Assembly: GCA_014728045.1 (NCBI GenBank)
Contig: WJMH01000015.1
Location: 22,479 to 86,478, forward strand
Length of the DNA: 64,000 nucleotides
Source: Candidatus Omnitrophota bacterium
Lineage (GTDB): Bacteria > Omnitrophota > Gorgyraeia > Tantalellales > Tantalellaceae
Reading direction: 5' to 3'
Below the pieces are notes generated by a model, which worked only from the letters and a program-made list of their open reading frames with translations, did no database searches and was not told where the DNA came from. How positions within the stretch are numbered: position 1 is the first letter of the stretch; every line of letters starts with the position of its first letter. This document shows, piece after piece, positions 24,281 to 51,982 of this stretch. A program made the position numbers and the translations under genes.

Positions 24281-24408
24281 ATCGATTCTCCTTGCTTAAA
24301 GTGAAAATTTATCCGAAAAACCCTGTTAAAAGTAATATACTACATTACTTTCCATATACAAAAAGAATTTCTGTTGCTGACCGGGACCAGTTATGATAAA
24401 TTAAATCG

Positions 24409-25462: not shown

Positions 25463-25475
25463 GCAGGACTGAACC

Positions 25476-26315: not shown

Positions 26316-26319
26316 GAGA

Positions 26320-26877: not shown

Positions 26878-26879
26878 TA

Positions 26880-28283: not shown

Positions 28284-28293
28284 GAAGAACTCA

Positions 28294-31200
28294 TCATGCT
28301 CTGGCCAGCATGGTCTTGATGCTGTCCATCAGATCCCTGAGCCTTTCCTTGTCCAGCTCCTCGGCATCCGGGACGAGCTTTATGACCACCATCCTGTCAC
28401 TTCCGAAAAGCATGCGGCACTCCTCCGCGGAAAGGTCCCTGGAGGAGACGACATTGGGTATCATCCGGTAATTGCGCTTGAGGGTCTCCGGATCCCACTG
28501 CAGGTACTTGCCGATCGCGAAGAGCATTATGTCCAGGAGAGGCAGGTATGCCGCCTCCGGGAATTCACTATCGTCTATCCCCGCTATCACTGACCTCCCC
28601 TGAAAGGAGCTGTAGTAGGCGGTGTTCTTATTGCTGGTAATGACAATGAGGTTGTCCGGGTCCACCGCTCCTTTGGAAGGATCGGTTATGTTCGAAACCC
28701 GGCGGGCCAGGTTGCGGCCCTCTCCCTTTATGATCTCCAGATTCTTGAAGAACCTTTCCAGGTCCTCGTTGTTATCCACTATCGTCGGCAGGAATTTAGC
28801 CAGATCCCTCAGGCAGTCGTTTATCTCGCCGCTTCCCAGGTCGAGATCAAGGGCCAGCACGACCCTTTCCTTTTTGCTGATAGCGGCTATGAGCGCGTTC
28901 ACGAAGGAGGGGATAAGCTTCTCGAGGTCCGGCACCGAACCCGTGCCGCTACTTATACCCTCTTCGATACCGAAAAGGTCCCTGCTGAGTGCCTCGTGTA
29001 AAGTGTCTATATACTCACCCGGCGCCAGCGCATCTTTTATGTGTTCGTAATCGGGAACATATCTTGGATATTTGTCAGAAGGATCTGGTATATGTTTCTT
29101 AAGTCCTTCTGCAAGGGACGGCGAGATGTCCGATAAAAAGACGATCTTGCCCGCGTGCTCAGGGAATTCCTTTTCGAGAGTCTCGGCGATGAAGCCGGAA
29201 GGAGCCACGATGAATTCGGAACCCTCGGCGGTCCCGGCCGTTATCTGCCTGGTGAGGAAATCTTCGACGAATCCGGGGGCCATCCCCTTCCGGATGCAGG
29301 CTGTGACCAGCTGCCTGTGGGGTTTACCCGAAGAAGGATCGGCCACGCGCAATCCGCAGGATAAGGCGTTTACATTGCTGAAGACGGGATTACGGGATAT
29401 GATATCCTTGGCTATGACCTCCATGAGGAAGCTTCTCTGAGCGTTAAGCACGCAGGTAAAAAGGATATCCGCCCCTTCCCCGTTAGCGAGCTTCTCTTTA
29501 AGCCGTGCCGCGTTCCTGGCGGACCTGATAGAAAGGTCCTCGAATTTTTTCACGGGTATGTCCTCGCTCTCGGATACTTCGAACTTTATGGGTATGTGCC
29601 TGGTCTTCCCGGGATCATCTTGCGGTGATCTGTCTTTACCGGCATCGGCCAGAGAGGCGGGCGCGTAATCGGGATTATCTACCGTGGGGGTATCCCCGTA
29701 TACATCCTGGTTGATGTTCTCGTGACGCAAACGTGCCATAGCGTAGGAAATAATGTTAAAAAGCACCGTCGTGACTACAAGCGCCCCCGCAGGCCACTGG
29801 ACGTGCGCGGAATGCGCAAGTCCGCCACCGAGCATGGAAACGATCATCAGGTTGAAGCCGGCAACGTAAACAGGCGCTTTGTAAGCGTACTTGAGCCGGC
29901 CCCATAAGGTCTTGCCCTTCGGCGCCCTGAAAAGGTTCGGGGTATGAAGCGCTACGAACAGAGCATACATTCCCGACATGCCGGCTATAAGGGTGAATAT
30001 GCCTATGACGCTGGCCGATACGAGCGAAGAAAGTACGGCAAATGGAAGAAGCGTGAAGATCCTCTCCTCCACCCTCGGCCCGACCTCAAGGGAATATTCC
30101 CACATGGCAAGGTCAGGATCGACTATCCTCTTAAGCAGCCTGACCGTCGCCGGGGCCGCGCTGTTAAAAGTGCCGGGTTTCTCATCCGAACTGATGGGTC
30201 CGGCGGCCACGGCATCGTTATTGACGTTCTCGTGGCGCAGAAGCGCCATCGCGTAGGATATAATGTTAAAAAGCACCGTCGTGAATATCAGTGCTCCCGT
30301 CGGCCACTGGGCGTGCGCGGAATGCGCAAGTCCTCCACCGAGCATGGAGACGATCATCAGGTTGAAACCGGTGACATATACAGGCGCCTTGAAGGCGTAC
30401 CTGATCCTCTCCCAAAGGCTGCTGCCTTTGTGGGCCCTGAAGATATTGGGCGTATGCATGGCCACGAAGAGCGAGTAAACAGCAGCCATGCCGATTATCA
30501 GGGTGCCTATTCCTATCACGCTGGCGGATACCAGCGAGGAAAGAACGGCAAAGGGAATTAGAGTGAAGATCTTCTCCTCGGTCCTCGGTCCGGCCCCTAT
30601 CGCGTACTGCCAGAAAGAGGAATCCGGGTCGACGATCCTCTTGATAAGATAAACGGCCGATGGTGCGTTACCGGCACCCTTCTCGCCCTCGGGGTTGAAG
30701 ATATCACCCTTGAGCGTCCTTCTCTGGGTGGCTTTAAAGATCAGTTCCTGGGTAAGCTTGTACCTGAGGCTGTTTATCTCCTTGAACCTCCTGCGATCGG
30801 TATTGGTAAGCTCCCCTACGCCGACCATCTCCCGGGGCAGGATCTCCTCTATGGGCTTTCGGGCCTTCATGTCCTGTTCTCTCAGCTTAAGAGAGGTCTT
30901 GTACTTTTCCAGAGCCGAATCAAAGTTCTTGACGTAATGTTCCGCTATTCCGTAGCTCAGGTAGTATTCCTTGACCCTGGGGTCACCCTCGGGCAGCATG
31001 TTCACGGCCTGCTGGAAAGCCTCCAGGGCTGCATCGTGAAAATGCCAGAAGAATTCGGCCCTGGCGAGCGTATAATGATCGGCGGCCACGTCGCTTCCGT
31101 TCATCTGTTTGCTCTTGACATCATCCCTGACTATCAGCAGCGTAAGGTACTGCCTGACTTTAAGGAAGCTGCCGGGAGCGATCTGGCAGAACTCCGCGAT

Positions 31201-33828
31201 AAGCTGGTTTATGGCGAGCATCTCTTTCCTGCTCTCCTCGCCGGTGGAGCGGGAAGCTATCCTCTGGGAAACCTCCTGAGCTATCTCCTGCAGGGCCCGG
31301 GCCAGTTCCTCGTAATCTTCCGAGACCCAATTCTTCAGCCTCTGTATCTCGAAATTGAGGCTGAAACCCCATTCAAGTTCGCGCAGGATGCTGAAAACTA
31401 TGGGACGAAGTTCTTCCTTGATCTTTGAGATGTCACCGGTGTAATTCCTTGAATCAAGCCTGAAGACCGCGTCCAGCACGTTACGGGTATCAAGGGGAGG
31501 TTCTGCGGCGAGGATCCTGTCTTTTTTCTTTTTGTCCTTTTCTCCGGAACTGCCGGTTTCCTTCCCGGCGTCCTTCTGGCGGACCCCGAACATGAGCTTG
31601 ATCATCCTCATTATGTACTGCAATAGATCGAACGATATATGCACGGCCCGGTAGGCGTATTTCATGGCCTTTATCGCTTCTTCCCGCTTTTTCGGATCGT
31701 CCATATCTTTTTCCTCGGGTTTTTTCTCTTTCTCTGGCTCATCAGGCTTTTTGACCTCTTCTGCCGCCCTCGCGCGGGAGCTCATCTTTTTCCTGTTAGC
31801 GATGAGCCTTACCATTACGACCACTGCCAGAGAAAGGCCGAACCACGGTATCGGCAGGAACATGGAAAGCCCTACAGATATTATGACAGTAAGTCCCGCG
31901 ACCAGCAAGAAATTCTTCCATCCCGTCCAGTTCTTTATAAGAAGCGCCGCGAAAAGCGTGACCGGAACGACGATAGCTATACCCACGGTGATGATATTTA
32001 CCGGCATCACCATGTAAAGTATACCTGAAAGAAGAAGAGCGCTCGTGAAAGTGATCAGGACGCTCTTCCAGTTTATCGCTCTGACCCTGTCCCAGAAGGA
32101 AAGTCTTATCCTCAAGGAGGCCTCTTTCTTTTCGGGGCTATCTTCTTCGGGGGCCTTTTCTTTCTCAGGCGCCTTAGCGCTTTCCGAGGACGGTTTCTCT
32201 TCAGCGGGGCTTTCTTCGGTGCCGAGTATGGCACGCAGCTTGCTGATAACGGCCCTTATGCCTTCATCCTCCTTCAAAAGGTCAGAGGCGGAGTTCTTTT
32301 TCATGAAGCTTTCATGCTTTGCGAGAAGCTGCTGTATAACCTCCCTCAGCTTCTCCATCTCATCCGGCGTGAGCTTATCGTCCATGCCTTTCTGTCCGAG
32401 TATCTTCGTGCCCTTTTCCCAGGCGACTTCCATCTCCCAGATCCAGCTGAGCCTTGCGAAAATATACCGGTACTCTTCCGCGAGCGCTCGGAGCGTCTTC
32501 ATAGCCATCTTGCGGCTACCCGGGAAAAGACGCGACTGCTTGAGCATGTACTGGCGCTTGATCCATTCGAAATACTGCTTATATAAGGTAAAGAAATGCG
32601 AGGCATCCTGAGGTCCCGTCTTCTTGAGGAAATCCTGCTGCTTGAACTTCTCGAGCTGTTCGCCGATCTCGGTGCTGCTTCTGGCCTGGTCCGGGAACGG
32701 GTCACACCTGTCCCAGAGGACGTTTTTGAGCACGATGGAGAGTTCCCCGTCCCGGTGTCCCGCGATGCGGTCGCCTTCGATCGCCTCGTAATTCTCCGGG
32801 AAAAGCTTCACCTGTATGGCACGCGCCCTTTCATGCCCGAAATAAGGACATATCATTTCGTGAAAAATATATTCCTGCAGCAGGGGTTCGTCCATCTCTA
32901 TGAGGTCCAGTACCTGCGTGCAGAGTCCTATTGTATCGGGATAATCATCTTTCAGTTTCGAGAAAAGCGTATCGATCGGTCCGGTGTGGGCAGTAAACCC
33001 CGTCAGTTCGACGCCGGACCCTGAAGTGGTATTGAACCCGAGAAGCCAGTTATGGGGCCTGGTCGGCTCCTGCCTGTCGGTCAGGACCACCGCGCTGAAC
33101 TCAAGGAACTTTGAAGATGCGGAAAGTTCCACGACCTGCTGCAGTTTCTTTCTGGTCCACGCGTCTATCTGAGCTTTCTGTATCCTTTTGTCGAGCTTCT
33201 TCTCAATCCCTTTGACCCGTTTGATCAGGCGGTGCCTCAGATCCGCCGGCGGATTGACGTTCTCGACCAGAGCTTCATGTATCCGGTGGGCTTCATTCTT
33301 GTTCTCGACCCTGGTGACGAACCCGCGTTCGTCAGGAGGCTCGAGTACCAGCTGCCGCATCAGGTATTCGCCTACTTTCTCCTGGCTCTGGACTTGGCAA
33401 GAAGAACCCGGGTCACTGGACCCGGGTATTTTAGGGTTGAAATATCTTATCCTGTAAGGACCGATCCCGATCGATACCTCACCGGAGGCCTCTGAACCGG
33501 TAACGAGCGGCCACCGCTGAAGGAATCCCGCCGGGATGTTCTTGGTGTTTTTTACCTGATCAAGCGCCAGCTGCGCGCAATCCTTTATACTGAACAGGTT
33601 CCGGTTGGCCGGATCGGCCTCGAATGCAATAAGCGCGTCGATGACATACCTGGTCATCACCATGAAATAACTTTCACCCTGCTTGGAAGGATCAAAGAAT
33701 GTCTGCGGCTGAAGATCGCTTTTCCGAGTTATATCCGGATTGGCCCACACCACCCCCTGCCATACCAGGAGGATGCAAAGAACGAACGCTATTGATCTTA
33801 CAGATTTATTTTTTGATAATTCCCTCAT
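28294..33828 (-). CDS. giant polytopic membrane protein A (about 1844-1861 aa), function unknown
   Basis: Uninterrupted 5.6-kb ORF. I place the start at the first ATG, 33828 (MRELSKNKSVRSIAFVLCILLVWQG.., a signal peptide); the track begins at TTG 33879. Domain order is: N-terminal periplasmic-type domain, multi-TM region including an internally duplicated 170-aa TM module, a CX5R(S)..DP low-molecular-weight PTP-like module, and a ~190-aa C-terminal domain shared with gene A' (44681-48589). Ends with a double stop TGATGA. Confidence 0.85.
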   Translation of the reverse strand: MRELSKNKSVRSIAFVLCILLVWQGVVWANPDITRKSDLQPQTFFDPSKQGESYFMVMTRYVIDALIAFEADPANRNLFSIKDCAQLALDQVKNTKNIPAGFLQRWPLVTGSEASGEVSIGIGPYRIRYFNPKIPGSSDPGSSCQVQSQEKVGEYLMRQLVLEPPDERGFVTRVENKNEAHRIHEALVENVNPPADLRHRLIKRVKGIEKKLDKRIQKAQIDAWTRKKLQQVVELSASSKFLEFSAVVLTDRQEPTRPHNWLLGFNTTSGSGVELTGFTAHTGPIDTLFSKLKDDYPDTIGLCTQVLDLIEMDEPLLQEYIFHEMICPYFGHERARAIQVKLFPENYEAIEGDRIAGHRDGELSIVLKNVLWDRCDPFPDQARSSTEIGEQLEKFKQQDFLKKTGPQDASHFFTLYKQYFEWIKRQYMLKQSRLFPGSRKMAMKTLRALAEEYRYIFARLSWIWEMEVAWEKGTKILGQKGMDDKLTPDEMEKLREVIQQLLAKHESFMKKNSASDLLKEDEGIRAVISKLRAILGTEESPAEEKPSSESAKAPEKEKAPEEDSPEKKEASLRIRLSFWDRVRAINWKSVLITFTSALLLSGILYMVMPVNIITVGIAIVVPVTLFAALLIKNWTGWKNFLLVAGLTVIISVGLSMFLPIPWFGLSLAVVVMVRLIANRKKMSSRARAAEEVKKPDEPEKEKKPEEKDMDDPKKREEAIKAMKYAYRAVHISFDLLQYIMRMIKLMFGVRQKDAGKETGSSGEKDKKKKDRILAAEPPLDTRNVLDAVFRLDSRNYTGDISKIKEELRPIVFSILRELEWGFSLNFEIQRLKNWVSEDYEELARALQEIAQEVSQRIASRSTGEESRKEMLAINQLIAEFCQIAPGSFLKVRQYLTLLIVRDDVKSKQMNGSDVAADHYTLARAEFFWHFHDAALEAFQQAVNMLPEGDPRVKEYYLSYGIAEHYVKNFDSALEKYKTSLKLREQDMKARKPIEEILPREMVGVGELTNTDRRRFKEINSLRYKLTQELIFKATQRRTLKGDIFNPEGEKGAGNAPSAVYLIKRIVDPDSSFWQYAIGAGPRTEEKIFTLIPFAVLSSLVSASVIGIGTLIIGMAAVYSLFVAMHTPNIFRAHKGSSLWERIRYAFKAPVYVTGFNLMIVSMLGGGLAHSAHAQWPTGALIFTTVLFNIISYAMALLRHENVNNDAVAAGPISSDEKPGTFNSAAPATVRLLKRIVDPDLAMWEYSLEVGPRVEERIFTLLPFAVLSSLVSASVIGIFTLIAGMSGMYALFVALHTPNLFRAPKGKTLWGRLKYAYKAPVYVAGFNLMIVSMLGGGLAHSAHVQWPAGALVVTTVLFNIISYAMARLRHENINQDVYGDTPTVDNPDYAPASLADAGKDRSPQDDPGKTRHIPIKFEVSESEDIPVKKFEDLSIRSARNAARLKEKLANGEGADILFTCVLNAQRSFLMEVIAKDIISRNPVFSNVNALSCGLRVADPSSGKPHRQLVTACIRKGMAPGFVEDFLTRQITAGTAEGSEFIVAPSGFIAETLEKEFPEHAGKIVFLSDISPSLAEGLKKHIPDPSDKYPRYVPDYEHIKDALAPGEYIDTLHEALSRDLFGIEEGISSGTGSVPDLEKLIPSFVNALIAAISKKERVVLALDLDLGSGEINDCLRDLAKFLPTIVDNNEDLERFFKNLEIIKGEGRNLARRVSNITDPSKGAVDPDNLIVITSNKNTAYYSSFQGRSVIAGIDDSEFPEAAYLPLLDIMLFAIGKYLQWDPETLKRNYRMIPNVVSSRDLSAEECRMLFGSDRMVVIKLVPDAEELDKERLRDLMDSIKTMLARA
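29690..30665 (-). repeat. intragenic tandem duplication (2 x ~510 bp) inside giant gene A
   Basis: Two DNA copies offset by 510 bp (for example GTTCTCGTGACGCAAACGTGCCATAGCGTAGG at 29716 versus GTTCTCGTGGCGCAGAAGCGCCATCGCGTAGG at 30226). They encode two ~150-aa TM modules (RIVDPD..FAVLSSLVSASVIGI..GFNLMIVSMLGGGLAHSAH..FNIISYAM) about 75-80% identical. Confidence 0.8.
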
Positions 33829-33879
33829 ATCGACAATACCTACACCTACCCCCCCGTAGCCTTTTGTAAGCTTTAACAA

Positions 33880-34070: not shown

Positions 34071-37000
34071 TTAGAGCGATACCGCGACCGCTTCCTGCAT
34101 CATCTGCCAGTCGCGTATCTGCTCGTAATCTACAGCGCGTATCTTCAGAAAGAGCTTGTCCAGTAAAGTATTGATATCCTCTACCCCGGCAAGCTGATCG
34201 GCAGCCTCTTTTCCGGAGATACGTGTAAGAAGGTCCTTGATATAATCAATACCCATACGCCTGGCATCCGGGTTGGTAGCGTTAAGACAGAATGCTATCT
34301 GCCTGGCGAGAACGAACCGCACCGCTATGTCCGGGGGCCTCATTCTCCCCGTCTCCGGGTCCAGACCGTCGGTATAGGCATCTTTTACGAAGGTTACGTT
34401 CTCGTTGGCTCTGTATTCCTTGAAGAGATCGTTTTCGTTCACCACCTCTGCCATCTCGAGGCCTTCCATCTGGGGTGTGTATGAAACTATCCTGCCGCCT
34501 TCGGGCAGTGTCCGGGTCGCCCTCTCAAGTGCCTTAAGGTATTCCTTGGCCGTCGCGTCAGTGTCACCGGGTATTATCTTATAGGTTATTATCTGCTGGT
34601 TATCGGGTTTTTCACCGAACTTTGCCTTGAGTTCGGAGTTCATTTCACGCACGCCGCTCTCAACGCTCTGGTACGTCTGGTGGTCTTCCAGGTTGTACAC
34701 CACCCCAACGACCATCCGCACCGGGTCGCTCCTTCTTTCGATCTCTTCTCCCGCGCCTATCGCTAACACCTGGCGCGTTGCGGCATTGTCCCCTTGAGGG
34801 GCTTCACCGGTCTCGCCGGACGCTACCATCTCGGCGGCTTCGCCCGGCATCATGCCTATTTCGGTGAGACTTGCAAGCTGGAATTTACGCGCTTCCATGT
34901 TTATGAAGTTGCGGAACTTGTCCTTCAGGGTGTTCCTTCCGAAGATCTTGCCCTGAAGAGAATTTGCCCTGTCGGTCTTACCGTAGATCTCCTCGTGACC
35001 GTAATCCATCTCATACATCTCATGAAAGATGAATTCTGCCAGCTCCATCTCATCAAGCGTCTCGACAAGTTCGGCTGAAAGGCCGATGTTCCCTGCGATG
35101 GCCGGATCAAGCCCGGGGTCGTCGCCCGTATTGAATCCCAACAGATAATTCTCTTCGCCTTCCACCTTGGCGTTGAAGAGGTATATGTTATTGATAACCG
35201 CGGATCTGTGCAAAGCCCTTTCCTCGTCCCCCATCTCAAGGTCGCCCACCATGTTCTCTACCAGAGCCATCAATCCCGGGTCATTATCCGGAAGGCCCCC
35301 TGACCGCATCTTCTCATAGAGCTTATTGAAAGCGAGGTTGATCTTGGTCCGCATGGCCTGGGTCATGTCCATCTTCTCACCCACCAGGTCCTTCAGTTCC
35401 TTTTCGGTACGGACCTGGTCCATTCTATCGGCAAGCTCGCCATGACCCACCATCACTTTGGGGATCTTCACCTGCGAGGCGGGGGCCACCTTATCGCGTA
35501 TGGCTTCTGTCTGCTGTTTGAGATCCGCTATAGCTCTGGTCACGGGGTCTATGTCACCTACGCGGTAGGGCTGGTACGGTTTGCCGGCGTCTCGCAAAGC
35601 CTCAAGATGGGCTTTCTCCAGGCGGACCTGAACCGCCCTGAACAGCTCCGGATTCGTCATTTCAAGCTCCTGGAGTCTTTCGGATTTGGCGCTGTCGGGA
35701 CCCATAGCGACATTAAGGTAGTTTTCCAGCATCTTTATCATTTCGGTATTCTCAATCCCCTGATCCACCATAGGCTGATCCATTATCTCCTGCTGGTGAC
35801 GGTACTGGGTGAGGTCGACTATCCTCTCGCGTGTCGCACCCAGCACCTTAAGCCCCTTATCGACAGCCTCCCTGTTCATTCCTCTCAGTTCAGCTGCGGG
35901 GTCCTGTATCCCGGCGTCTCGCATGGAAAGCTGAAGGGTCTTCTTCCCGGCGTCGGTTTTCACGAAATTATCGTACTCCTCCACCGCTAGTCTGTCCGTC
36001 ATACCTTCCAGACGCCTTTTCCAGCCGTTGGGCAGACCGAACTGGCCCTTTTCAAGCTGGGAATCCATCTGCTGTTCGGTAAGTTGTACCGCCCTCAGAA
36101 CGAGCGGCAGGTTCGAATTGAAAAAGTCCAGCCCTTCTCCTCTGTATATGTCAAATCCGTATCCCCCGTCCTCCACGCTCTTTTCCAGATCACCAAGTGC
36201 GGCGATCACCTGATCCGGGCTCAGCCTGAGAGAATATCTGTTCAAGCCTATAAGGCTCTTGTTCAGAAAAGAAAATACCTGGGGCGTACTGCTGGCGACG
36301 TTCACAGCGAGACGCCTTATGAGAGTAACTCCTATACTGCCTTTCAACGAATCAAACCCATAGTTTTCGCCCTTCATCTCATCCAGCATCTTCCGGCTCT
36401 GGGCTTCGTCCAGCCCCATTCCCTTGAGCCTGTTAAGTTCTGCCAGCATGGCGTTATGGACCTCGTTCACTGTCTCGGCCATCTCGGGCGCGTCTTCCTC
36501 CTGGGCCTGGCGTATTATCTCAAGAGCTTCTTCCAGGGTGGAGGCATTACCGAACGCCTCTTTCAGTAAAGCGTCCTGCCCGGAAGTAAGGGTAAGGTAA
36601 TTGGTCTGGAGACCGTATTTATCGATGATCTCCTTGCGGGCATCAACCGTACTCGGGTTGCTCTTGAATAGATACACCGGAGCCTTATCACCGTAGATAT
36701 CGACCCCCCAGCTCACTAGCTTGTTCACAAAACTTTTCAGAGTGGCATAACCGCCTTCTTCGGCATACCCGCTGAAAGGCTTGACCTCCCGTCCGGTCAG
36801 GGACTGAATCGCTTCTTCTGTGGAAGTGGAAATATCATAAGCTCTCTTCCTGGCCATCCTCATATCCAGTTCATTGCTACTCAAGGCTAGCATGTTAAGC
36901 CCCCTGCCGAGAAATATATCATAACCCAACCTGTCCGCAAGGTTTATGCGTTCTTTCAGTTCGTTTATATCAAGGACTGAAAGTTCCCCGCCCAGATCCG

Positions 37001-40000
37001 TGGACGGGTCTATCTGAAGAGCCCTCAGGATGGTCTCTGCCTCTTCGGCACTCTGCACATATTCTCTCCTCGTTCTTTCGAACTGGCTGACCCTTTCCTG
37101 GAGGTCCATGTATTCCTTTTCAAGTTCGGCCGCGTCCTCCCTGACCTGGAGCATGTCAATGATGCCCCTGGCCCTCTGGACCATGTTGTCAAGAACCGTA
37201 TCCGCTGCCATCTGCGTCACCGTGGCCAGCTCGCCCCTGTTGAGAGCTCCTCCTTCCTCTATTGCGGTACGCATTATCCTGTCCGCCCTTGCGATTGAAT
37301 CACGGGCTATGGCCGCGTTCACCTGGTATTGGTTCTTTGCCGACTCGATCTGTTGCTTTATATCGCGTCCCAGCTGATCTTCTCTGTTAAGAAAATTCAT
37401 AACTTCTTTTTTCATGCGACTGGTGGCAGCACTGTCCTTATTGGTCGCATCCGTTATCCTTGAAAGCATCTCCTCGAGCCCCTCCTCTCCGAAATAGCCC
37501 TGGTAGGCTTTATGCAGGGAGAGGAGGTCTTTGGTCCTTCCGTACTCGTCAAGATCAGCCTGCACGCTGTCGAAGGCCTTCCTCAAGACCGCCATATCTA
37601 TCATATGAAGAAGCCTGGGGTCACCGCTGTCAATGGCCTCATCCCGACCCGCAGCCATGTCCATCATTAGCCCCATGACCCTCTGGAATCCCTCTCTGTC
37701 GGCGGCGCGTCGCTGGTCCGCCTCAGCCTGGGACTTTTCATAAGCTACCCTTAACCCCCCCGGCAGTGCCGCCAGCTCTTTCTCAGAGGGCCTCTCAACG
37801 GGCAAAGTGTACCTCCTGAACGAGCCCCAGTCCTTCGCGGCCAGCCCCTTTTCGATAAGCGCCTCAGAGAACTGTTCGGAGAACCTTATCCGGTTGACGT
37901 CCTGCTCCAGCTTGGCGATCTCATGCTCGTATCTTTGCACCTTGTCCGGCCCCAGGAAATCGGAACTATCGAACTGTATAAGATATGTAAGCCCCTTGGC
38001 CCTTGCCTGGCTGAAGGTCTCCCCGAACCGGTCATGGAGCGGAAGCTTGTTGTATACATGTTCCTTCCCCAGAGACCTGTCCATCCAGTAATATACTCCC
38101 AGCATTTTGAGCAGCGCGTCCCTCAGCGCGGGAACGGCCTCCTCCGCTTCGGCGAGCATGCGCGAGTACTTGTCCACCCACGCTTGTTCCTTTTCAGCGG
38201 TCCGTATCCTTGCGCGGGTCCTCTCTACCCGGTTACGCAGGTTCCTGGCCCGCTGTTCCATGACCTCGTAGAGCATTCTCTCAAAAACCTTCGTTGCCTT
38301 GGCCAGAACGATGGGCTTGCGCCAGGGATGCAGGCTCAGGCTCCCGAACTGATCCCGCCAGGGCCCGGGCTTATCGGCAGAGCCCTGCATGCTCCAGGCG
38401 AGCCTGTTGACGTTGGAGATGGCGTCTCCGTAATTATCGATTATCTCCTGCACATCGGCGCTCCTGGAATCCATATCTTTAACGCTCTCTGCCGCGGCGG
38501 CAAGAAGGGCTATCCTGCCCGATGTATTCTTGTACTTATTGCCAACGAGCATCTCCAGCTGTTTTTCGAGATATTCAAGCTCCCTGTCGTTCATCTCATC
38601 CAGGGACCTTACGCGCATAAGGTCCTTCCGGCTGGTCGCCGGGCTTTCAGCGGCCAGCCTGCTTAGAACACCTCTGGCCGTCTGCATTTCCTGGGGCGTG
38701 GCCGGAAGAAGCATATCCACGGCCATTTCGTAAGGATATGACTCGGCGGGAATTATTTCAGGCTCCAATATACCCTCGGCGGGTTCGGTCTCGGCCAGCT
38801 CGATCTGGTTCACTTCATCGAGGGAGATAACGTTCATGAACCTGTCGGCGACCTCGGCCGGACCACCCAGATTCTCTGAAAGCGCTTCCATCTCGTGGTC
38901 GCTAAGTCCGAAATAGAGTTTTACCACCTCAACCAGGTCCTGTGCGTTATCATATGTACCCATCAGGTTGAAAGCTTCCCTGCGCGCGCGTACCATTGCC
39001 CCGACAAGGTTCTTGGCGTTCTTTGCCTGCTCGGTATTGACTTGGACCGCGCGGGTTATTTTCATGACAAGGCCTTTTTTACCTATCTGGTCGCCCGGCT
39101 TGACCGAATCATCTTTACTCCCGTAGGGCTCTGCGGTTATCTTCTTAAGATGCTTGTCAGCGAGGTTCTCGCCAAAAAGAGCCTTGAACTCTTCATCGGA
39201 ATAGCCCCTTTCCTGGACGACGGACATGGTGACGTCCGTTACGCGCCCGTCCTGGACATCCAGGTCGAACTCGACCTGGCCCAGACGGAAAGCTCCCGCG
39301 TTATACGCCGCGAGGCTCATGCCCGCGGTCATTATGTTAAGATCGTTCATCACCGTGTACTTGTAGGTCTGGGCTTCCGCCGGCGTAAGGCGGTCCTCAC
39401 CTGGCTGCCGGGCGGCCCGTTCTATATTATCAATCATCTGCTCCCTGATGCCTTCCAGGAGCCTCGCGTAAAGCCCTTTATTGAGTTTCCCGTCTATCGT
39501 ACACAGCTGGGCCAGTTCGTGGAGTTTGCCCAGAAGACCGTTATTGGCAGGAACACGCGTGAACGCGTCCATGAACTTTTCCGCGGCGGCCGTGTTATCG
39601 GCTACTTCCGTCATGGTCATTACCGCCGCTTCCGGGGTAGAGAAATCCACACCGGTATAATCATGAAAAGCGATGTTATCGGCGATCCTTCTCTTCCCGT
39701 CCGCCCCGAAAAGACCTGTGAACAGGCTGTCGGCATCCTCGGTATTCAGATATTTGGTCGCCGCCGCTCCGTGACCGGCTTTAAGGTCCTCTACATCACC
39801 GAATATACCCAGCCCGGCGTTGGCGTTCCTGATATTGCCGGCCATCGCGTCATGCATCATAAGGGCCACCCTCGCCTCAAGCAAGAGTTCCGGCGTAATG
39901 AAACGGCTTTCGTATTCCTCCTGGCTTATCCTGCCGGCCTTGCGCGCCTCGGCCAGTTCAGCGTTATAGCTTCTGGCCATGGCATCCACCTTGTCGGAGT

Positions 40001-43000
40001 TCATGATCGCGTGTATCGCGCCGTTGGAGCCCCTTAACCTGTTACCTCCGGAACCGTAAGCGAGACTTACCGTGACGGGGTTGCCGTCGGCGTCGGTCAC
40101 GACACGCCCGTCTTCATCGGTCACGGCGACTTCCTGGACGCCCCCTTTCTGCAAAACGTACATATTGAGAGAGTAACTGAGTAGATCCACGAACTTCCTA
40201 ACGTCACTTTCCCGGAGGGGCTTGTCCATGCGGCCCATGAGGTAGAGGTCTATCATCCTTTCGAGGGATTCCCTGATCATGTACCCCTCGTCACGGGCGG
40301 TCCGGTCGTATCTTAACAGCCCCCTTGTATCATATATATTGAGTATCCCGTCTATAGAAGTGGCGAGCGCGTTCTTAAGACCCTCCAGGTTCTTCCTTCT
40401 TTCGCCGGCACGGTCGAAGAGCTCAGAGTCCCTTCTGACCCGCCGCGCTATAGCATCGCCGTAGCCTATCGGCATCATCTGCAGCTTCTTCTGGAGGTCC
40501 TCTATCTCGCTTTCTTCGGTCATTTCAACGTTGATCAGAGTATTGAGCGTCTTGAAATCAAGTTCATCTTTTTTGATATCGACACGCGAAAGCGCAGGAT
40601 CCGTTATCCGGGACCTGTTGACCCTGAAAGCGACCTGCTTCTTTTTTTCATCCATCAGGTCCTTGAGTATGGGAACTATAGACTTGCGGTAGGCGGTCTC
40701 CAAAGCCTCCATGAGCTCGCTGAGATCAGCGGCTCCCTTTTCCATCAGTTCCTCTATCCGGTCTATCGCCTCGTCCCTCCTCTTTTTATCCTTCTCGTCC
40801 CTGAACCTGGTCTTTTTAACCTCGTCCAGGGCTTCCTGGAGGATGGACTCAAGTTCCTCTCCCGAAGGCATCCTCTCCACCGTTACTATGCCTTCGGATA
40901 TCAGACTCTCCAGAGCCGAGAACTGTTCCCGGCCTATGGGGCCCACCACCGAGAACTTGGCGGAATGTGTCTCCCGGCGTCTTTGTTCCTGACGGTCTTC
41001 CACGACTGCGTCTATGGCCTCGAAAAAAGCCTTCTCAAGATCAGGCCTTCCCTTGAAGGCCTCATCCAGGGCGTCTTCTGTCATGACAAGAACCCTCATC
41101 GGGGTATCGGCGACGACATCAGCGTTCCTGCGCGTCCTGTGTACCAGAGCTATCTCGCCTACCATCTGCCCGGCGCCGTTATCCGTCTGGAAGACGGTGT
41201 TCTTGGTCCTGCTCCCTATGAGCGGATAATCCACCCTGTACCCCCCAGAAAGCACGAAATACGCGGAATTATCATCCGGAGTTCCCGCCTTGATAAAGGT
41301 CTCCCCGGGCTGTATATATGTAACGCCCAGGTTTTCGCTCATTCTTCTGACGAGTTCATCACGGTCTTCCCGGGAAAGCGAATTGAAAAAGACATTGAGA
41401 TCAGAACCTTCTACCTGAAAAGCATTCTCTATGACTTCAAGGGATTCACCGTAATCGACGACCCCCATCCTGTTCCTGCCGCTTGCCAGAAGCTGTTCCT
41501 GCTCGCGGGAGAGGCCCCGGTCACGCACCAGCCGCTGAAGGGCATCCGCTATGTCCTGCGCCGCGTCGATCTTGCCGTCCTGGAAACTGCTCCTCAGCCT
41601 CTCAAGCGAAGTGGATAATTTGCTTATCTTGACCGGGCTGAGCCCGGGCCGGTTCTGCCTGCCCTCGGCCATGGCGGGAAGGATATCTTCCTTTACACGG
41701 GCGATCTCAGAGGCTATCTCAGCGTCGTTCAAAAGCCCCTTGACCATGTCGCCTATCTCCATGCGCGTGTTAAGGAAGAAATCATCCAGCTCCTTCTGTA
41801 TTTCGGCCTTTCTCTCCTTCTGGAACTGTGAACTGAGTGAATTCACCGTTCTCTGGAGTCCGTTCAGGAAGTTTACCAGGCCCACAAGTTCGTCAGCGGC
41901 TTTCTGTTTGTCATCCTCTTGTCTAAGTCTGCGCGCCAAGGTATATACCAGGTTACTGGCGGTGGATGAAGCAAATGAATCGATCTTGTCGGAGTATCCT
42001 GTCATCGCGTAATCATCCAAGGTGCGGCAGAGACTTTTTGCGGAGGTGATCAGGCCCTCGCTCTCCAGCTGGCGCCTTATAGCGGGCAGCATCTTTGAAG
42101 TAAGCTTAAGACCTCCTTCCAGAGGCGCGGTATAGTCCCTGTCCACTTCGAGCCTTTCTTCGGCTTCCATCTGCCAGACGGCGGCGGTCACCAGTTCACC
42201 CGCCTCATCCGGTTTCTTAAGCGGAGTCTCATCCGCGAGAAGTTTATCCCGCCTGTCATTAGCGCGATAGGCCTGTTCAACCTGCTCTGCGAGTATATGG
42301 TCGCCGTAGATGCCGCCGACTATTTCATGGAGGATAACGCTTCGCCCGTCCCTGCCGATCCTGCCGTCCGCGTTCTGGTACTTTGCGTTTATGCGTATAC
42401 CGTAACCGCCCGGAGTACCTTCGAAATTCACCCCTTCAACTGTACGTACAAGGGGAAGTCCCGTGAGAACACTGTTGCCGGTAAGTCCTTTTACTATCTC
42501 TTCGACATCAGGGGAGATGCCCATCGCTTCGAGAAAGGGAAGCAGGTCGTTATTTATTATATCGTCAAGTTCCCCTTCGGGGATGTCCTTGAAGCTTTCG
42601 GGAGCCTGCAGGCTAATAGCTTCCATCTGCTGGTCTGTCTCGCGTTCATGTACCCGGTGGAGGAGTTCCCGGAGGGGCATGGTAATGGGCCTTCCCTTCT
42701 TCATCCTGAGGACAAGATCCTCTCCCTTTCTTTCGATACCTACGATCTCGTTGCCCTCGGCGATAGCCTTCTGGTTCTGGGTGACCACGATCACGGCCGC
42801 CTTGAAAGCGTCTATGCTCCTTCGATCCCATACGTCCTCTCCCAGCGGAGAGAGAAAACTCGCCACCTGTATGAGTGAAGCCTCGCTCAGGATCCGGTAC
42901 ATCTTCTCGTAGGTGCCGGAGATCTTCCCCGAAAGAAGGTCGAAATACGGGCATTCGTACCCCTTTTCGTTCTTGAAGTCCGGAATTATCGAAACATAGG

Positions 43001-44489
43001 ATATATCCTCCTGCTTATACAGGTCACAGAGGTTCTCCGTGTGGAAACCTCCCGTTACGACTATTGCGGCCTGTTTCCCGCGGTCGGTGAAATTTATGTT
43101 CTCCAGGAAAGCTTCGTCCCTGCCGAAAGAGTATTCGTAGAAACGCTCAAGATCGGCGCGGTATCTGTCAAGTTGCCGGGACTCTTCGGGCGAGCGGACG
43201 GAGATATTATAAACGGGGGCCTTCTCATCTATAAAGGAAGAAAAATTATTTACCCTGAAAGCGTCCCTGTTCTGCTTGTAATACTTGTAATCCTCTTTGG
43301 TCAGGCTCAACGCGAAAAGGTTCTTCATCAGGGTAAGATTCCTGGAAAGCCCGTTAAGGCGCCTCTGTTCATTGTTCTGGTAAAGATTGGATTTAAGATC
43401 CGCTTCTATGCGGTCCATCTCCTCCATCACTGCGAACCTGTCCGCAGCGTGGTAAAGGGTAATATAAACTATATATTTCTGGAGGTCGGGATATTCATCC
43501 AGCGATATATCGGCGAGTTTGGCCTTTTTTACCAAAAAATCATAGAACTCGAACTGTGATATCTTTTTAACCTTGAAGTCTATGGTCTTCATCACCAGCT
43601 CATCAAGCGCCTTCCTGGAAAGCATTCTCTCGAGCTGGTCAACAAGAAGATCCCTCTGCGTGTTAGCCGCCTGGAAGTCAATGCCCCCCTCCTGGTTCAG
43701 GGACTGGTAAAGCAGGTAGATATTGGGATAATCCTTGGGATCTATCATCTGCTCTTTGGCTTTCTGCATGAGAAAGCTTAAGTAGTCCTTGAACTGAAGC
43801 TCCCCCTGTTTGTAGGCTTCGTATCGGGTATCCACTTCAAGAAGCTGGGGGGTATAAATGCTCTTTTTAAGAAGGTCCATAACCCGGCTTATGCCCCCCA
43901 AGAGCTCTTTCGCCTGTTCCTTGTAATCCTCCGACTCCCAATAGACCGAGATATTGTTCATGTAAAGGACCGGGTCTTCTATTCCCCAGAGCCTGACATC
44001 GAAGGGATGGTTGACCGCATAGTATTCAGGACCACTTACAAGTCCCTGTTTTACAAAGTGGTCCGCGACCTTCTCGCGTATCACCCTGTCGGCAATACCG
44101 GTAAAAATAGATAGATCGTATTCCCCGACACCGCCTTCAAGATTGATATCGGTAATACCGTATTCTTTTACAAGATAGGAGATTATCTCGGATATCTTTT
44201 TCTGAGCGCCGTAGTTACAATGCGCATCCTGTATGTGGATTATGAGTTTATCGGAATCGGCATTATGGGTGAATTTCATGGTCCCCAGATGCTGAGGAAC
44301 GGTAAAGGTCTCAACGTTAAGTGGGGCGAACTGCTGCTCAGGCGCGCTCAATACGGAGAATACCGGTTCGGGCACCTCCGCAACAGCACCAGCATCTTTA
44401 ACGGAAAAGCTAGTCATGAAGACTACTATCACGATCAGTGAAGTGATCTTTTTCGCGACCGTATGTGCTTTTTTAATGCCCCATAACAT
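34071..44489 (-). CDS. giant secreted/anchored acidic helical protein B (3472 aa) with embedded cNMP-binding-like segment, function unknown
   Basis: Uninterrupted 10.4-kb ORF. ATG 44489 is preceded by AGAGAGGA with 5-nt spacing. N-terminal signal/anchor (KKITSLIVIVVFMTSFSV). Segment aa ~1025-1160 matches the CAP-family cNMP-binding pattern (..GETFIKAGTPDDNSAYFVLSGGYRV..GQMVGEIALVHRTRRNADVVADTPMRVLVM). C-terminal region has an NYLLGFNT..IFHEM..GHE module shared with gene A. Confidence 0.85.
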   Translation of the reverse strand: MLWGIKKAHTVAKKITSLIVIVVFMTSFSVKDAGAVAEVPEPVFSVLSAPEQQFAPLNVETFTVPQHLGTMKFTHNADSDKLIIHIQDAHCNYGAQKKISEIISYLVKEYGITDINLEGGVGEYDLSIFTGIADRVIREKVADHFVKQGLVSGPEYYAVNHPFDVRLWGIEDPVLYMNNISVYWESEDYKEQAKELLGGISRVMDLLKKSIYTPQLLEVDTRYEAYKQGELQFKDYLSFLMQKAKEQMIDPKDYPNIYLLYQSLNQEGGIDFQAANTQRDLLVDQLERMLSRKALDELVMKTIDFKVKKISQFEFYDFLVKKAKLADISLDEYPDLQKYIVYITLYHAADRFAVMEEMDRIEADLKSNLYQNNEQRRLNGLSRNLTLMKNLFALSLTKEDYKYYKQNRDAFRVNNFSSFIDEKAPVYNISVRSPEESRQLDRYRADLERFYEYSFGRDEAFLENINFTDRGKQAAIVVTGGFHTENLCDLYKQEDISYVSIIPDFKNEKGYECPYFDLLSGKISGTYEKMYRILSEASLIQVASFLSPLGEDVWDRRSIDAFKAAVIVVTQNQKAIAEGNEIVGIERKGEDLVLRMKKGRPITMPLRELLHRVHERETDQQMEAISLQAPESFKDIPEGELDDIINNDLLPFLEAMGISPDVEEIVKGLTGNSVLTGLPLVRTVEGVNFEGTPGGYGIRINAKYQNADGRIGRDGRSVILHEIVGGIYGDHILAEQVEQAYRANDRRDKLLADETPLKKPDEAGELVTAAVWQMEAEERLEVDRDYTAPLEGGLKLTSKMLPAIRRQLESEGLITSAKSLCRTLDDYAMTGYSDKIDSFASSTASNLVYTLARRLRQEDDKQKAADELVGLVNFLNGLQRTVNSLSSQFQKERKAEIQKELDDFFLNTRMEIGDMVKGLLNDAEIASEIARVKEDILPAMAEGRQNRPGLSPVKISKLSTSLERLRSSFQDGKIDAAQDIADALQRLVRDRGLSREQEQLLASGRNRMGVVDYGESLEVIENAFQVEGSDLNVFFNSLSREDRDELVRRMSENLGVTYIQPGETFIKAGTPDDNSAYFVLSGGYRVDYPLIGSRTKNTVFQTDNGAGQMVGEIALVHRTRRNADVVADTPMRVLVMTEDALDEAFKGRPDLEKAFFEAIDAVVEDRQEQRRRETHSAKFSVVGPIGREQFSALESLISEGIVTVERMPSGEELESILQEALDEVKKTRFRDEKDKKRRDEAIDRIEELMEKGAADLSELMEALETAYRKSIVPILKDLMDEKKKQVAFRVNRSRITDPALSRVDIKKDELDFKTLNTLINVEMTEESEIEDLQKKLQMMPIGYGDAIARRVRRDSELFDRAGERRKNLEGLKNALATSIDGILNIYDTRGLLRYDRTARDEGYMIRESLERMIDLYLMGRMDKPLRESDVRKFVDLLSYSLNMYVLQKGGVQEVAVTDEDGRVVTDADGNPVTVSLAYGSGGNRLRGSNGAIHAIMNSDKVDAMARSYNAELAEARKAGRISQEEYESRFITPELLLEARVALMMHDAMAGNIRNANAGLGIFGDVEDLKAGHGAAATKYLNTEDADSLFTGLFGADGKRRIADNIAFHDYTGVDFSTPEAAVMTMTEVADNTAAAEKFMDAFTRVPANNGLLGKLHELAQLCTIDGKLNKGLYARLLEGIREQMIDNIERAARQPGEDRLTPAEAQTYKYTVMNDLNIMTAGMSLAAYNAGAFRLGQVEFDLDVQDGRVTDVTMSVVQERGYSDEEFKALFGENLADKHLKKITAEPYGSKDDSVKPGDQIGKKGLVMKITRAVQVNTEQAKNAKNLVGAMVRARREAFNLMGTYDNAQDLVEVVKLYFGLSDHEMEALSENLGGPAEVADRFMNVISLDEVNQIELAETEPAEGILEPEIIPAESYPYEMAVDMLLPATPQEMQTARGVLSRLAAESPATSRKDLMRVRSLDEMNDRELEYLEKQLEMLVGNKYKNTSGRIALLAAAAESVKDMDSRSADVQEIIDNYGDAISNVNRLAWSMQGSADKPGPWRDQFGSLSLHPWRKPIVLAKATKVFERMLYEVMEQRARNLRNRVERTRARIRTAEKEQAWVDKYSRMLAEAEEAVPALRDALLKMLGVYYWMDRSLGKEHVYNKLPLHDRFGETFSQARAKGLTYLIQFDSSDFLGPDKVQRYEHEIAKLEQDVNRIRFSEQFSEALIEKGLAAKDWGSFRRYTLPVERPSEKELAALPGGLRVAYEKSQAEADQRRAADREGFQRVMGLMMDMAAGRDEAIDSGDPRLLHMIDMAVLRKAFDSVQADLDEYGRTKDLLSLHKAYQGYFGEEGLEEMLSRITDATNKDSAATSRMKKEVMNFLNREDQLGRDIKQQIESAKNQYQVNAAIARDSIARADRIMRTAIEEGGALNRGELATVTQMAADTVLDNMVQRARGIIDMLQVREDAAELEKEYMDLQERVSQFERTRREYVQSAEEAETILRALQIDPSTDLGGELSVLDINELKERINLADRLGYDIFLGRGLNMLALSSNELDMRMARKRAYDISTSTEEAIQSLTGREVKPFSGYAEEGGYATLKSFVNKLVSWGVDIYGDKAPVYLFKSNPSTVDARKEIIDKYGLQTNYLTLTSGQDALLKEAFGNASTLEEALEIIRQAQEEDAPEMAETVNEVHNAMLAELNRLKGMGLDEAQSRKMLDEMKGENYGFDSLKGSIGVTLIRRLAVNVASSTPQVFSFLNKSLIGLNRYSLRLSPDQVIAALGDLEKSVEDGGYGFDIYRGEGLDFFNSNLPLVLRAVQLTEQQMDSQLEKGQFGLPNGWKRRLEGMTDRLAVEEYDNFVKTDAGKKTLQLSMRDAGIQDPAAELRGMNREAVDKGLKVLGATRERIVDLTQYRHQQEIMDQPMVDQGIENTEMIKMLENYLNVAMGPDSAKSERLQELEMTNPELFRAVQVRLEKAHLEALRDAGKPYQPYRVGDIDPVTRAIADLKQQTEAIRDKVAPASQVKIPKVMVGHGELADRMDQVRTEKELKDLVGEKMDMTQAMRTKINLAFNKLYEKMRSGGLPDNDPGLMALVENMVGDLEMGDEERALHRSAVINNIYLFNAKVEGEENYLLGFNTGDDPGLDPAIAGNIGLSAELVETLDEMELAEFIFHEMYEMDYGHEEIYGKTDRANSLQGKIFGRNTLKDKFRNFINMEARKFQLASLTEIGMMPGEAAEMVASGETGEAPQGDNAATRQVLAIGAGEEIERRSDPVRMVVGVVYNLEDHQTYQSVESGVREMNSELKAKFGEKPDNQQIITYKIIPGDTDATAKEYLKALERATRTLPEGGRIVSYTPQMEGLEMAEVVNENDLFKEYRANENVTFVKDAYTDGLDPETGRMRPPDIAVRFVLARQIAFCLNATNPDARRMGIDYIKDLLTRISGKEAADQLAGVEDINTLLDKLFLKIRAVDYEQIRDWQMMQEAVAVSL
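41010..41417 (-). other. cNMP-binding (CAP effector)-like domain inside giant protein B
   Basis: See gene B. The pattern G-E-[IL]-A-L..R[RT]A-[DT]-V-[VI]-A with the preceding beta-roll glycines is characteristic of cyclic-nucleotide-binding folds. Coordinates are approximate, derived by residue counting. Confidence 0.45.
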
Positions 44490-51893: not shown

Positions 51894-51982
51894 TAAAACC
51901 TCTTTCCCTCCGTTACCGGCCAACCCGCCGGAAATAAACACTCGCTTTGCGATAACGCGTATTTTTATTATATAATAAAGGC

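What the first reader, a model, noticed from the sequence alone, without database searches (positions are those of the whole stretch)
28294..28870. Conserved ~190-aa C-terminal domain shared by the two membrane giants A and A' (also 44681-45260)
The last ~190 residues of A and A' align end to end (ALDLDLGSGEIND..DLERFFKNLEIIKGEG..ARRVSNITDPSKGAVDPDNLIVITSNKN..AGIDDSEFPEAAYLPLLDIMLFAIGKYL..MLARA versus ALDLDIGEGRVNS..DLERFFRDLEIIKGEG..ARRVESLTDPEKGSVDPENLIVLTSKNN..AGIDSSDLPEGAYLPVLETMLFAIGRHL..MLARA), although the rest of the proteins have diverged and carry different internal repeats. The N-terminal ~180 aa (signal peptide plus periplasmic-type domain) are also homologous. A conserved cytoplasmic C-terminal module on two paralogs flanking gene B suggests a shared docking or enzymatic function.
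Basis: seen in the sequence. Interest (0 to 1): 0.7.

Follow-up and report, generated by a model that had tools for sequence, protein, structure and literature searches.

The report
Omnitrophota C-terminal "bookend" domain family
The shared tail of the two membrane giants is real and belongs to an unannotated ~210-residue domain that always ends large Omnitrophota proteins, always pairs with a conserved signal-peptide N-terminal domain, and brackets an interchangeable middle that is often an ordinary cytoplasm-type enzyme.

Summary
The C-termini of A (28297-28926) and A' (44684-45328) are 56% identical over 209 aa (E=8e-68). Their N-termini are 41% identical (E=2e-24). The middles are unrelated.

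This is more than a local paralogy. A full HMMER scan found 233 cluster representatives. The domain always sits at the extreme C-terminus, and 142 of 147 proteins end in Ala. Every named member is from Omnitrophota. Pfam, NCBIfam and PDB sequence searches give no match.

The domain co-occurs with a Sec-type signal peptide plus a ~150-aa N-domain. The 283-5960 aa between them is hypervariable cargo: PGK, iPGM, enolase, kinases, methyltransferases, HD domains, and LMW phosphatase in A.

Its most likely role is a common docking or sorting handle with a metal- or ligand-binding pocket. An enzymatic or regulatory role, or an export-signal role, remains open. "Cytoplasmic" is unproven because the topology indicators conflict. 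The link to B is partial.

The parts
28297..28926 (-). C-terminal domain (C-dom) of A, residues 1637-1846, ending in Ala followed by a stop
   Evidence: BLASTP against A' E=8e-68. Family HMM match 258 bits, E=1e-80. AF2 pLDDT 90.9.
44684..45328 (-). C-terminal domain (C-dom) of A', residues 1088-1302, ending in Ala followed by a stop
   Evidence: BLASTP. Family HMM match 249 bits, E=5.6e-78.
33325..33834 (-). Sec-type signal peptide of A (predicted cleavage VWA|NPD after residue 31) plus the conserved N-domain, to about residue 170
   Evidence: BLASTP against A' E=2e-24. N-dom HMM E=4.6e-54. Signal-peptide features across the family.
48068..48589 (-). Sec-type signal peptide of A' (VWA|DPG after residue 41) plus the N-domain, to about residue 174
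   Evidence: (E=5.3e-46).
29038..29466 (-). Cargo of A directly upstream of C-dom: a low-molecular-weight phosphatase/ArsC-like domain (residues 1457-1599). The CX5R(S) loop reads 'CVLNAQRS' in the translation.
   Evidence: Pfam PF01451 E=2.5e-6, above the curated cut-off. Absent from the ortholog P0002, whose alignment jumps from A residue 1465 to 1639.
29728..30573 (-). Two tandem 4-helix transmembrane modules of A (residues 1088-1369)
   Evidence: Hydropathy. DNA repeat 29703-30002 / 30213-30512, 78% identical.
31795..32067 (-). First 4-helix transmembrane block of A (residues 590-680)
   Evidence: Hydropathy and K/R distribution.
47552..47914 (-). 4-helix transmembrane block of A' (residues 226-346) with CPBP/PrsW-like motifs (EELLK, FTAGH, HLFVN)
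   Evidence: Hydropathy. Weak Pfam PrsW-protease match, E=0.013, below the cut-off. Motifs read from the translation.
34071..44489 (-). Gene B (3472 aa), flanked by A and A'. It has its own signal-like N-terminus and a cNMP-binding domain. It is not a member of the C-dom/N-dom family.
   Evidence: Pfam PF00027 E=1.6e-10. No C-dom or N-dom match. Ortholog next to the A' ortholog in L002, and B-like genes downstream of family members in L008, L011, L012 and L015.

Best explanation
The shared tail is one copy of an unannotated, apparently Omnitrophota-restricted domain of about 210 aa. I call it C-dom. It is the C-terminal half of a two-ended carrier architecture: Sec-type signal peptide, then a ~150-aa N-domain, then variable cargo of 283-5960 aa, then C-dom ending in Ala-COOH.

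C-dom is a self-contained flavodoxin-like alpha/beta domain. Its near-invariant polar residues sit at the C-terminal edge of the parallel sheet. I infer that they form an acidic pocket that binds a divalent metal or a phosphorylated or carboxylate ligand. In A numbering these residues are:
- Asp1663 after strand 1
- Asn1728 and Thr1733 on strand 3
- Asp1754 and Asp1755 after strand 4
- Tyr1763-x-Pro1765-x-x-Glu/Asp1768
- Pro1822-x-Ala1824 after strand 5

My best reading is that C-dom, together with the N-domain, is a common handle. It would dock or sort many different cargo-carrying polypeptides to one shared partner or site at the cell envelope, as a dockerin or a T9SS C-terminal domain does for varied cargo. 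On this reading it is not part of any cargo's own chemistry.

Shown: the homology, the family size, the terminal position and terminal Ala, the coupling with the N-domain, the cargo diversity, the fold class, and the absence from curated libraries.

Inferred: the pocket, the ligand, the docking or sorting role, and the compartment.
For: - A against A': E=8e-68.
- Family size: 233 representatives at E<=1e-3 and 54 at E<=1e-30 among 1.84 billion.
- Position: the domain envelope ends on the last residue in 127 of 147 proteins, and within 3 residues in the rest.
- Last residue is Ala in 142 of 147, and in 129 of 129 aligned sequences.
- Residue frequencies: D1663 136/140; N/D1728 142/146; T/S1733 126/147; Y1763 143/146; P1765 143/146; E/D1768 136/147.
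- AF2 with 54 sequences: pLDDT 90.9, pTM 0.88, with these residues at strand ends.
- N-domain present in 85 of 117 proteins of at least 600 aa, and in every complete ORF in the fetched loci.
- Pairwise identities of N-dom and C-dom co-vary (Pearson r=0.69, 2650 pairs).
- Only 294 of 3570 pairs share any similarity in the middle.
- The cargo spans dozens of unrelated Pfam families.
- A carries an LMW phosphatase that its ortholog lacks.
- All 9 named members among 20 looked up, and all 14 genome loci, are Omnitrophota or mislabelled bins.
- No Pfam, NCBIfam or PDB sequence match.
Against: - No partner or machinery gene is conserved next to the family. The recurrent neighbours are housekeeping genes: trpE/G, ispH, polyprenyl synthase, radical SAM, PAP2, LOG.
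- A cluster of near-invariant acidic and polar residues at strand ends is more typical of a catalytic or metal site than of a pure docking surface.
- Known terminal tags (T9SS CTD, dockerin) have different folds.
- The cargo is cytoplasm-type, which is odd for an envelope or exported assembly.
- Topology indicators conflict.
- I could not inspect the model's coordinates, so the clustering of conserved residues into one pocket is inferred from secondary-structure positions only.
Confidence: 0.4

Rival explanations
1. C-dom is an enzyme or a small-molecule/phospho-sensing regulatory domain. It could be a Mg2+-dependent phosphoesterase or transferase, or a receiver-like switch. It would act in cis on the adjacent cargo or on a common substrate, as REC domains are attached to many outputs.
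For: - Near-invariant D, N/D, T, D/N/E and E residues at the C-terminal ends of strands 1, 3 and 4 of a flavodoxin-like fold.
- A D-x-(D/E)-x-G motif at strand 1.
- The enzyme cargo often sits directly upstream. Examples are PGK 1212-1593 before C-dom at 1629 in P0015, LMWPc in A, and a methyltransferase in P0038.
Against: - HAD and REC defining motifs are not all met. There is no conserved Lys, and the +2 Asp is acidic in only 59%.
- An enzymatic role does not explain the obligatory extreme-terminal position, the invariant last Ala, or the strict pairing with the N-domain.
Confidence: 0.25
2. C-dom is the recognition domain of a second-step export or delivery pathway. The signal peptide takes the protein across the inner membrane. 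C-dom, possibly with N-dom, then targets it to the surface or into prey or host cells, where the cytoplasm-type cargo (kinases, nucleases, deaminases, methyltransferases, glycolytic enzymes) acts as effectors.
For: - Classical Sec signal peptides across the family, with a conserved 'WQGxVWA|xPD' and a mean n-region charge of about +3.
- 30 of 83 members have no other hydrophobic segment.
- The cargo needs ATP, SAM or DNA.
- The architecture parallels T9SS cargo: signal peptide plus an obligatory C-terminal domain.
- Omnitrophota include epibiotic predators, and predator RNA has been seen inside dead prey cells (PMC13153191; PMC10066038).
Against: - A and A' carry 12 and 4 membrane helices. Their K/R distribution places the soluble parts on the cytoplasmic side.
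- The locus is core-chromosomal and syntenic, with no secretion genes nearby.
- The embedded glycolytic enzymes are unusual effectors.
- No machinery has been identified.
Confidence: 0.2
3. The similarity is only a remnant of a local duplication of A and A' around B, with no wider meaning.
For: A and A' are neighbours, and both ends are homologous.
Against: - 233 clusters share the domain, with unrelated middles.
- Orthologs of A and of A' exist separately in another MAG at 52-57% identity.
- The ends are far more conserved than the middles.
Confidence: 0.02

Closest known systems
T9SS C-terminal domain (CTD) of Bacteroidota cargo proteins
   Same: Both are phylum-restricted. Both sit obligatorily at the extreme C-terminus of many paralogous proteins, often very large, that start with a Sec signal peptide and carry heterogeneous cargo.
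   Different: The T9SS CTD is an ~80-100 aa Ig-like beta-sandwich (PMC11285876, abstract seen). C-dom is a ~210 aa alpha/beta domain with an active-site-like polar cluster. C-dom also comes with a second conserved domain at the N-terminus, and its cargo is cytoplasm-type. There is no Pfam match to any model.
Cellulosomal type I dockerin on enzymes that dock to a giant scaffoldin
   Same: A conserved, usually C-terminal, metal-dependent module on signal-peptide-bearing enzymes with varied catalytic domains. Giant signal-peptide proteins (B here) are encoded nearby. True dockerin-bearing giants exist in Omnitrophota (10.1101/2023.11.21.568195; 10.64898/2026.06.07.730766).
   Different: The fold and sequence are different, and there is no PF00404 match. 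No cohesin-like repeats were detected in B (one search finds no repeat families in B). The docking role here is an inference, not a result.
Omnitrophota 'multi-enzyme metabolic cluster' long proteins (Nielsen & Lui 2026 preprint)
   Same: Membrane- or signal-peptide-bearing polypeptides from the same phylum that embed methyltransferase, HATPase_c, GNAT, HD, kinase and sugar-metabolism domains. This is the same cargo spectrum as found here.
   Different: That work catalogues proteins of at least 10,000 aa. Its text does not mention a conserved C-terminal or N-terminal bookend domain. The family here spans about 650-6400 aa and is defined by its two termini.
Flavodoxin-like alpha/beta domains (CheY-like receivers, HAD MDP-1, lumazine synthase, periplasmic-binding-protein type I lobes)
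   Different: No hit stands out, identities are 1-18%, and Foldseek finds nothing at E<=1e-3. The family-defining motifs of REC and HAD are not all present.

Membership tests
T9SS C-terminal sorting domain | Extreme C-terminal position in proteins with an N-terminal Sec signal peptide | tested here: met
   The domain ends on the last residue in 127 of 147 proteins. Signal-peptide features across the family.
T9SS C-terminal sorting domain | ~80-100 aa Ig-like 3+4 beta-sandwich; match to T9SS CTD sequence models | tested here: not met
   The AF2 model is alpha/beta with 5 strands and 9 helices over ~210 aa. No Pfam or NCBIfam match.
HAD-like phosphatases | Motif I DxD(T/V) at the end of strand 1 | tested here: inconclusive
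   First Asp 136/140. The +2 position is D or E in only 82/140, and +4 is Gly in 89/140.
HAD-like phosphatases | Motif III conserved Lys, plus a significant sequence or fold match | tested here: not met
CheY-like receiver domains | Asp at the end of strand 3, Thr/Ser at strand 4, Lys at strand 5 | tested here: not met
Toprim domain | Conserved Glu after strand 1 and DxD after strand 3; significant sequence match | tested here: not met
   The only matches are to 1t6t at E=0.21 and 0.069, covering about 55 residues. The D-x-D-like motif is on strand 1, not strand 3.
Cellulosomal dockerin | Duplicated Ca-binding F-hand segment of ~70 aa (PF00404) | tested here: not met
   No Pfam match. The fold is different.
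New C-dom/N-dom bookend family (defined here) | C-dom HMM match at the extreme C-terminus ending in Ala, plus signal peptide and N-dom at the N-terminus | tested here: met
   A: C-dom E=1e-80, N-dom E=4.6e-54. A': C-dom E=5.6e-78, N-dom E=5.3e-46. Both end in ...MLARA followed by a stop.

The most novel reading that the evidence does not exclude
C-dom and N-dom together mark the substrates of a so far unrecognised, Omnitrophota-specific protein delivery or assembly pathway. The signal peptide with its conserved WQGxVWA|xPD motif, and the terminal alpha/beta domain with its free Ala carboxylate, would be the two recognition elements. The interchangeable middles (kinases, nucleases, deaminases, methyltransferases, even PGK, iPGM and enolase) would be effectors or tethered enzymes placed at the predator-prey interface or inside the prey. 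A variant reading is that the metal pocket of one C-dom binds the terminal carboxylate of another, polymerising the carriers.
Probability: 0.2. Interest if true: 0.85.

Novelty: new variant of a known kind. Interest (0 to 1): 0.62.

Why it matters
Omnitrophota are uncultured, ultra-small, host-dependent or predatory bacteria, and their many long proteins are mostly uncharacterised. A single pair of terminal domains that brackets hundreds of unrelated cargos gives a sequence handle for three tasks:
1. Enumerating a whole class of these proteins per genome.
2. Searching for the partner or machinery by phylogenetic profiling.
3. Testing whether cytoplasm-type enzymes are really exported.

There is also a practical annotation issue. 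Members are annotated as 'phosphoglycerate kinase' or 'carbamoyltransferase'. Metabolic reconstructions may therefore count divergent, tethered paralogs as housekeeping enzymes.

Tried and rejected
1. B's C-terminus as a divergent C-dom. It looked similar by eye, but BLASTP gives E>1, the family HMM gives no hit, and hhalign gives probability 0.5%. Rejected.
2. The word-indexed homolog search found only one hit, both with the single sequence and with the 54-sequence profile. The full HMMER scan was needed.
3. The search for related loci with the 54-sequence alignment failed because no conserved stretch was found. A 10-sequence alignment worked.
4. The first AF2 run with 3 sequences was unusable (pLDDT 48).
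5. The afdb50 fold library was not available. The model's coordinates are not exposed, so pocket geometry could not be checked.
6. TM-number parity across the family, from a crude hydropathy scan, gave 48 even against 35 odd. It is too noisy to use.
7. PADLOC: nothing for A or A'. B matches only through its generic cNMP-binding domain.
8. Pfam scan of all 54 C-dom sequences at E<=5: only scattered single-member hits.
9. PDB profile search with the N-domain: nothing significant.
10. Exact look-up of A' in the assembly collection: not on record.
11. Toprim, HAD, REC and dockerin membership: see the membership test. None is met.
12. Literature: no paper in the library describes the bookend domains.

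Full report
**1. Observation**

Three long genes lie head to tail on the minus strand:
- A: 28294-33879
- B: 34071-44489
- A': 44681-48589

BLASTP of A against A' gives two significant segments:
- C-termini: 116/209 identical, E=8e-68.
- N-termini: 61/150 identical, E=2e-24.

Nothing else is significant. Each protein carries its own internal repeat. A is numbered from the Val codon at 33834, giving 1846 aa.

**2. This is a family, not a local duplication**

- Pfam and NCBIfam give nothing for the tail.
- The word-indexed protein search found one relative, P0001, a partial Omnitrophota protein. Its contig is syntenic with A, with a convergent chorismate-binding gene.
- A full HMMER scan of 1.84 billion cluster representatives found 233 proteins at E<=1e-3, 131 at E<=1e-10 and 54 at E<=1e-30. 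Their lengths range from 70 to 6377 aa.
- In the 150 best hits the domain ends on the very last residue in 127 of 147 cases, and within 3 residues in the rest.
- The last residue is Ala in 142 of 147, and in 129 of 129 aligned sequences.
- All 9 of the 20 looked-up representatives that carry a source name are Omnitrophota.
- All 14 loci recovered from GTDB species genomes are Omnitrophota MAGs. Three of these loci (L003, L006, L011), from two bins, are labelled Planctomycetia.
- Several genomes have two or more copies, sometimes in tandem (L003 and L010).

**3. Anatomy of the domain**

With a 54-sequence alignment, AlphaFold2 gives pLDDT 90.9 and pTM 0.88. The model has an N-terminal helix, followed by strand 1, two helices, strand 2, helix, strand 3, helix and strand 4, then a helical excursion, strand 5 and a long C-terminal helix.

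The best-conserved positions are:
- D1663: 136/140
- N/D1728: 142/146
- T/S1733: 126/147
- D/N/E1754: 136/146
- D1755: 101/146
- Y1763: 143/146
- P1765: 143/146
- E/D1768: 136/147
- Y1789: 135/149
- P1822: 137/147
- A1824: 126/148

Mapped on the model, the polar residues fall at the C-terminal ends of strands 1, 3 and 4 and at the start of the next helix. This is the usual ligand site of Rossmann-like and flavodoxin-like folds.

Fold comparison:
- Foldseek against the PDB finds nothing at E<=1e-3.
- PDB profile searches give only E>=0.03.
- A Pfam scan of all 54 members at E<=5 shows no recurrent family.

**4. What it is attached to**

- An HMM of the A/A' N-terminus finds the N-domain in 85 of 117 family proteins of at least 600 aa, almost always starting within the first 50 residues. 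It is present in every complete C-dom ORF in the window and in the loci.
- The N-termini are textbook Sec signal peptides. They have a K/R-rich n-region (mean net charge about +3), a 12-18-residue h-region and a conserved 'WQGxVWA|xPD'.
- Pairwise identities of the N-domain and C-dom co-vary (r=0.69).
- The middles are 283-5960 aa long, with a median of 1226. Only 294 of 3570 pairs share any similarity there.

Pfam scans of 71 members show very diverse cargo, mostly of cytoplasmic type:
- Central metabolism: PGK, iPGM, enolase, phosphotransacetylase, glucosamine-6-P isomerase-like, DeoC, mannitol dehydrogenase, CofD.
- Other enzymes: carbamoyltransferase, phosphoribosyltransferase, cytidine deaminase, alpha-amylase, GDE_C, inositol monophosphatase, SAM methyltransferases, HD domains.
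- Signalling and nucleic-acid-related domains: HATPase_c, Ser/Thr kinases, PAS, HTH, a helicase domain, beta-CASP, PD-(D/E)XK.
- Scaffolding repeats: TPR and HEAT.

In P0015 the PGK domain (1212-1593) directly precedes C-dom (1629-1839). In A the equivalent slot holds an LMW phosphatase/ArsC-like domain (1457-1599). The ortholog of A, P0002, lacks this domain.

**5. Genomic context**

The neighbourhood is core-chromosomal and syntenic. On one side are polyprenyl synthase, ispH, trpG and trpE. On the other are a radical SAM gene, PAP2, a LOG-like gene and a hydrolase.

- L002 holds the A' and B orthologs. The ortholog of A lies on the same 105,708-bp contig, two locus tags before the A' ortholog, so one gene (B) lies between them.
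- B-like genes follow a family member in L002, L008, L011, L012 and L015.
- B itself has neither domain.
- No secretion or processing genes recur nearby.

**6. Compartment**

This is unresolved.
- The signal peptides, and the 30 of 83 members with no further hydrophobic segment, argue that the N-domain, cargo and C-dom are exported together.
- In A and A', all four 4-helix blocks have every K/R on the side of the long soluble regions: 18, 8, 8 and 10 against 0, 0, 0 and 0. By the positive-inside rule this argues for the cytoplasm.
- Both indicators agree that the blocks contain an even number of helices. The N-domain and C-dom therefore lie on the same side of the membrane.

**7. Interpretation**

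Four properties together describe a common handle on interchangeable cargo: the obligatory terminal position, the invariant free Ala, the strict pairing with the N-domain, and indifference to the cargo. This is functionally comparable to dockerins or to T9SS C-terminal domains.

The conserved acidic and polar cluster suggests that the handle works through a bound metal or ligand. I give about 0.4 to a docking or sorting role, 0.25 to an enzymatic or regulatory role, and 0.2 to an export or delivery signal for effectors. These readings are not mutually exclusive.

Published context:
- Omnitrophota long proteins often embed many metabolic and regulatory enzymes and are mostly signal-peptide- and/or TM-bearing (10.64898/2026.06.07.730766).
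- Giant proteins are linked to attachment and predation (10.1101/2023.11.21.568195; PMC10066038).
- Predator RNA reaches prey cells (PMC13153191).
- None of these texts mentions the bookend domains.

**8. Verdict**

This is a real and statistically solid finding. It turns out to be larger than described: a new domain family and a new two-ended architecture in a poorly known phylum. The function is inferred only. Interest is 0.62. At the level of systems it is a new variant of a known kind (a terminal tag on modular cargo). At the level of the domain family it is new.

Noticed in passing
window 32791-33054 (A residues 261-348) and 34932-35153 (B residues 3113-3186), minus strand: A and B share a short module, 'N(W/Y)LLGFNT ... 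E(Y/F)IFHEM-x5-GHE' (BLASTP E=1e-6). The same module recurs, sometimes twice, in other family members: P0088, P0133, P0135, P0145 and P0060. It may be a metal-binding or protease-like motif, and it has no Pfam match.
   Followed up: partly
window 47552-47914 (A' residues 226-346); 29728-30573 (A residues 1088-1369): The 4-helix block of A' carries CPBP/PrsW-like intramembrane-protease motifs (EELLK, FTAGH, HLFVN). The Pfam PrsW match is weak (E=0.013). A has two tandem copies of a similar 4-helix module (78% identical at DNA level). They keep F-x-x-x-H but lack the last His.
   Followed up: partly
window 46865-47227 (A'): Internal protein repeat in A' with a period of about 99 aa, containing 'VNFRNFGFD-x-EHH' (DNA copies at 46865-46930 and 47162-47227, 80% identical). 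There is no family match.
   Followed up: no
window 29038-29466 (A residues 1457-1599): The LMW phosphatase/ArsC-like domain keeps the CX5R(S) loop (CVLNAQRS) and sits directly upstream of C-dom. The ortholog P0002 lacks the whole segment. This is a clean example of cargo gain or loss at the junction with C-dom.
   Followed up: yes
window 34071-44489 (B); cNMP-binding domain at 41052-41318: B has a signal-peptide-like N-terminus (KK...ITSLIVIVVFMTSF...AGA|VAE) yet contains a cyclic-nucleotide-binding domain (PF00027, E=1.6e-10). PADLOC matches it only through that domain. Its first ~540 aa are conserved in L008, L011, L012 and L015. The motifs 'IIHIQDAH' and 'VVTGGFHTENL' recall ChaN/Tiki-type domains. 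That resemblance is from memory and was not tested.
   Followed up: partly
P0015, P0030, P0067 (family members, not in the window): NCBI names these 1300-4300 aa bookend proteins 'phosphoglycerate kinase', 'carbamoyltransferase C-terminal domain-containing protein' and 'methyltransferase domain-containing protein'. The embedded PGK scores only 179 bits against PF00162. Automated metabolic reconstructions may miscount such divergent paralogs.
   Followed up: partly
window 28261-28998 plus strand; equivalent places in L001-L015: Antisense ORFs of 100-400 aa overlapping C-dom cluster across 15 loci. They are shadows of the conserved coding strand, not genes.
   Followed up: yes
window 48723-52000 and 24374-28283: The flanking genes are housekeeping genes and are syntenic in related MAGs. 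They are a B12-binding radical SAM gene, PAP2, a LOG/SLOG-like gene and an alpha/beta hydrolase on one side, and polyprenyl synthase, IspH, TrpG and TrpE on the other. The giant-gene trio is therefore not on a mobile island.
   Followed up: yes
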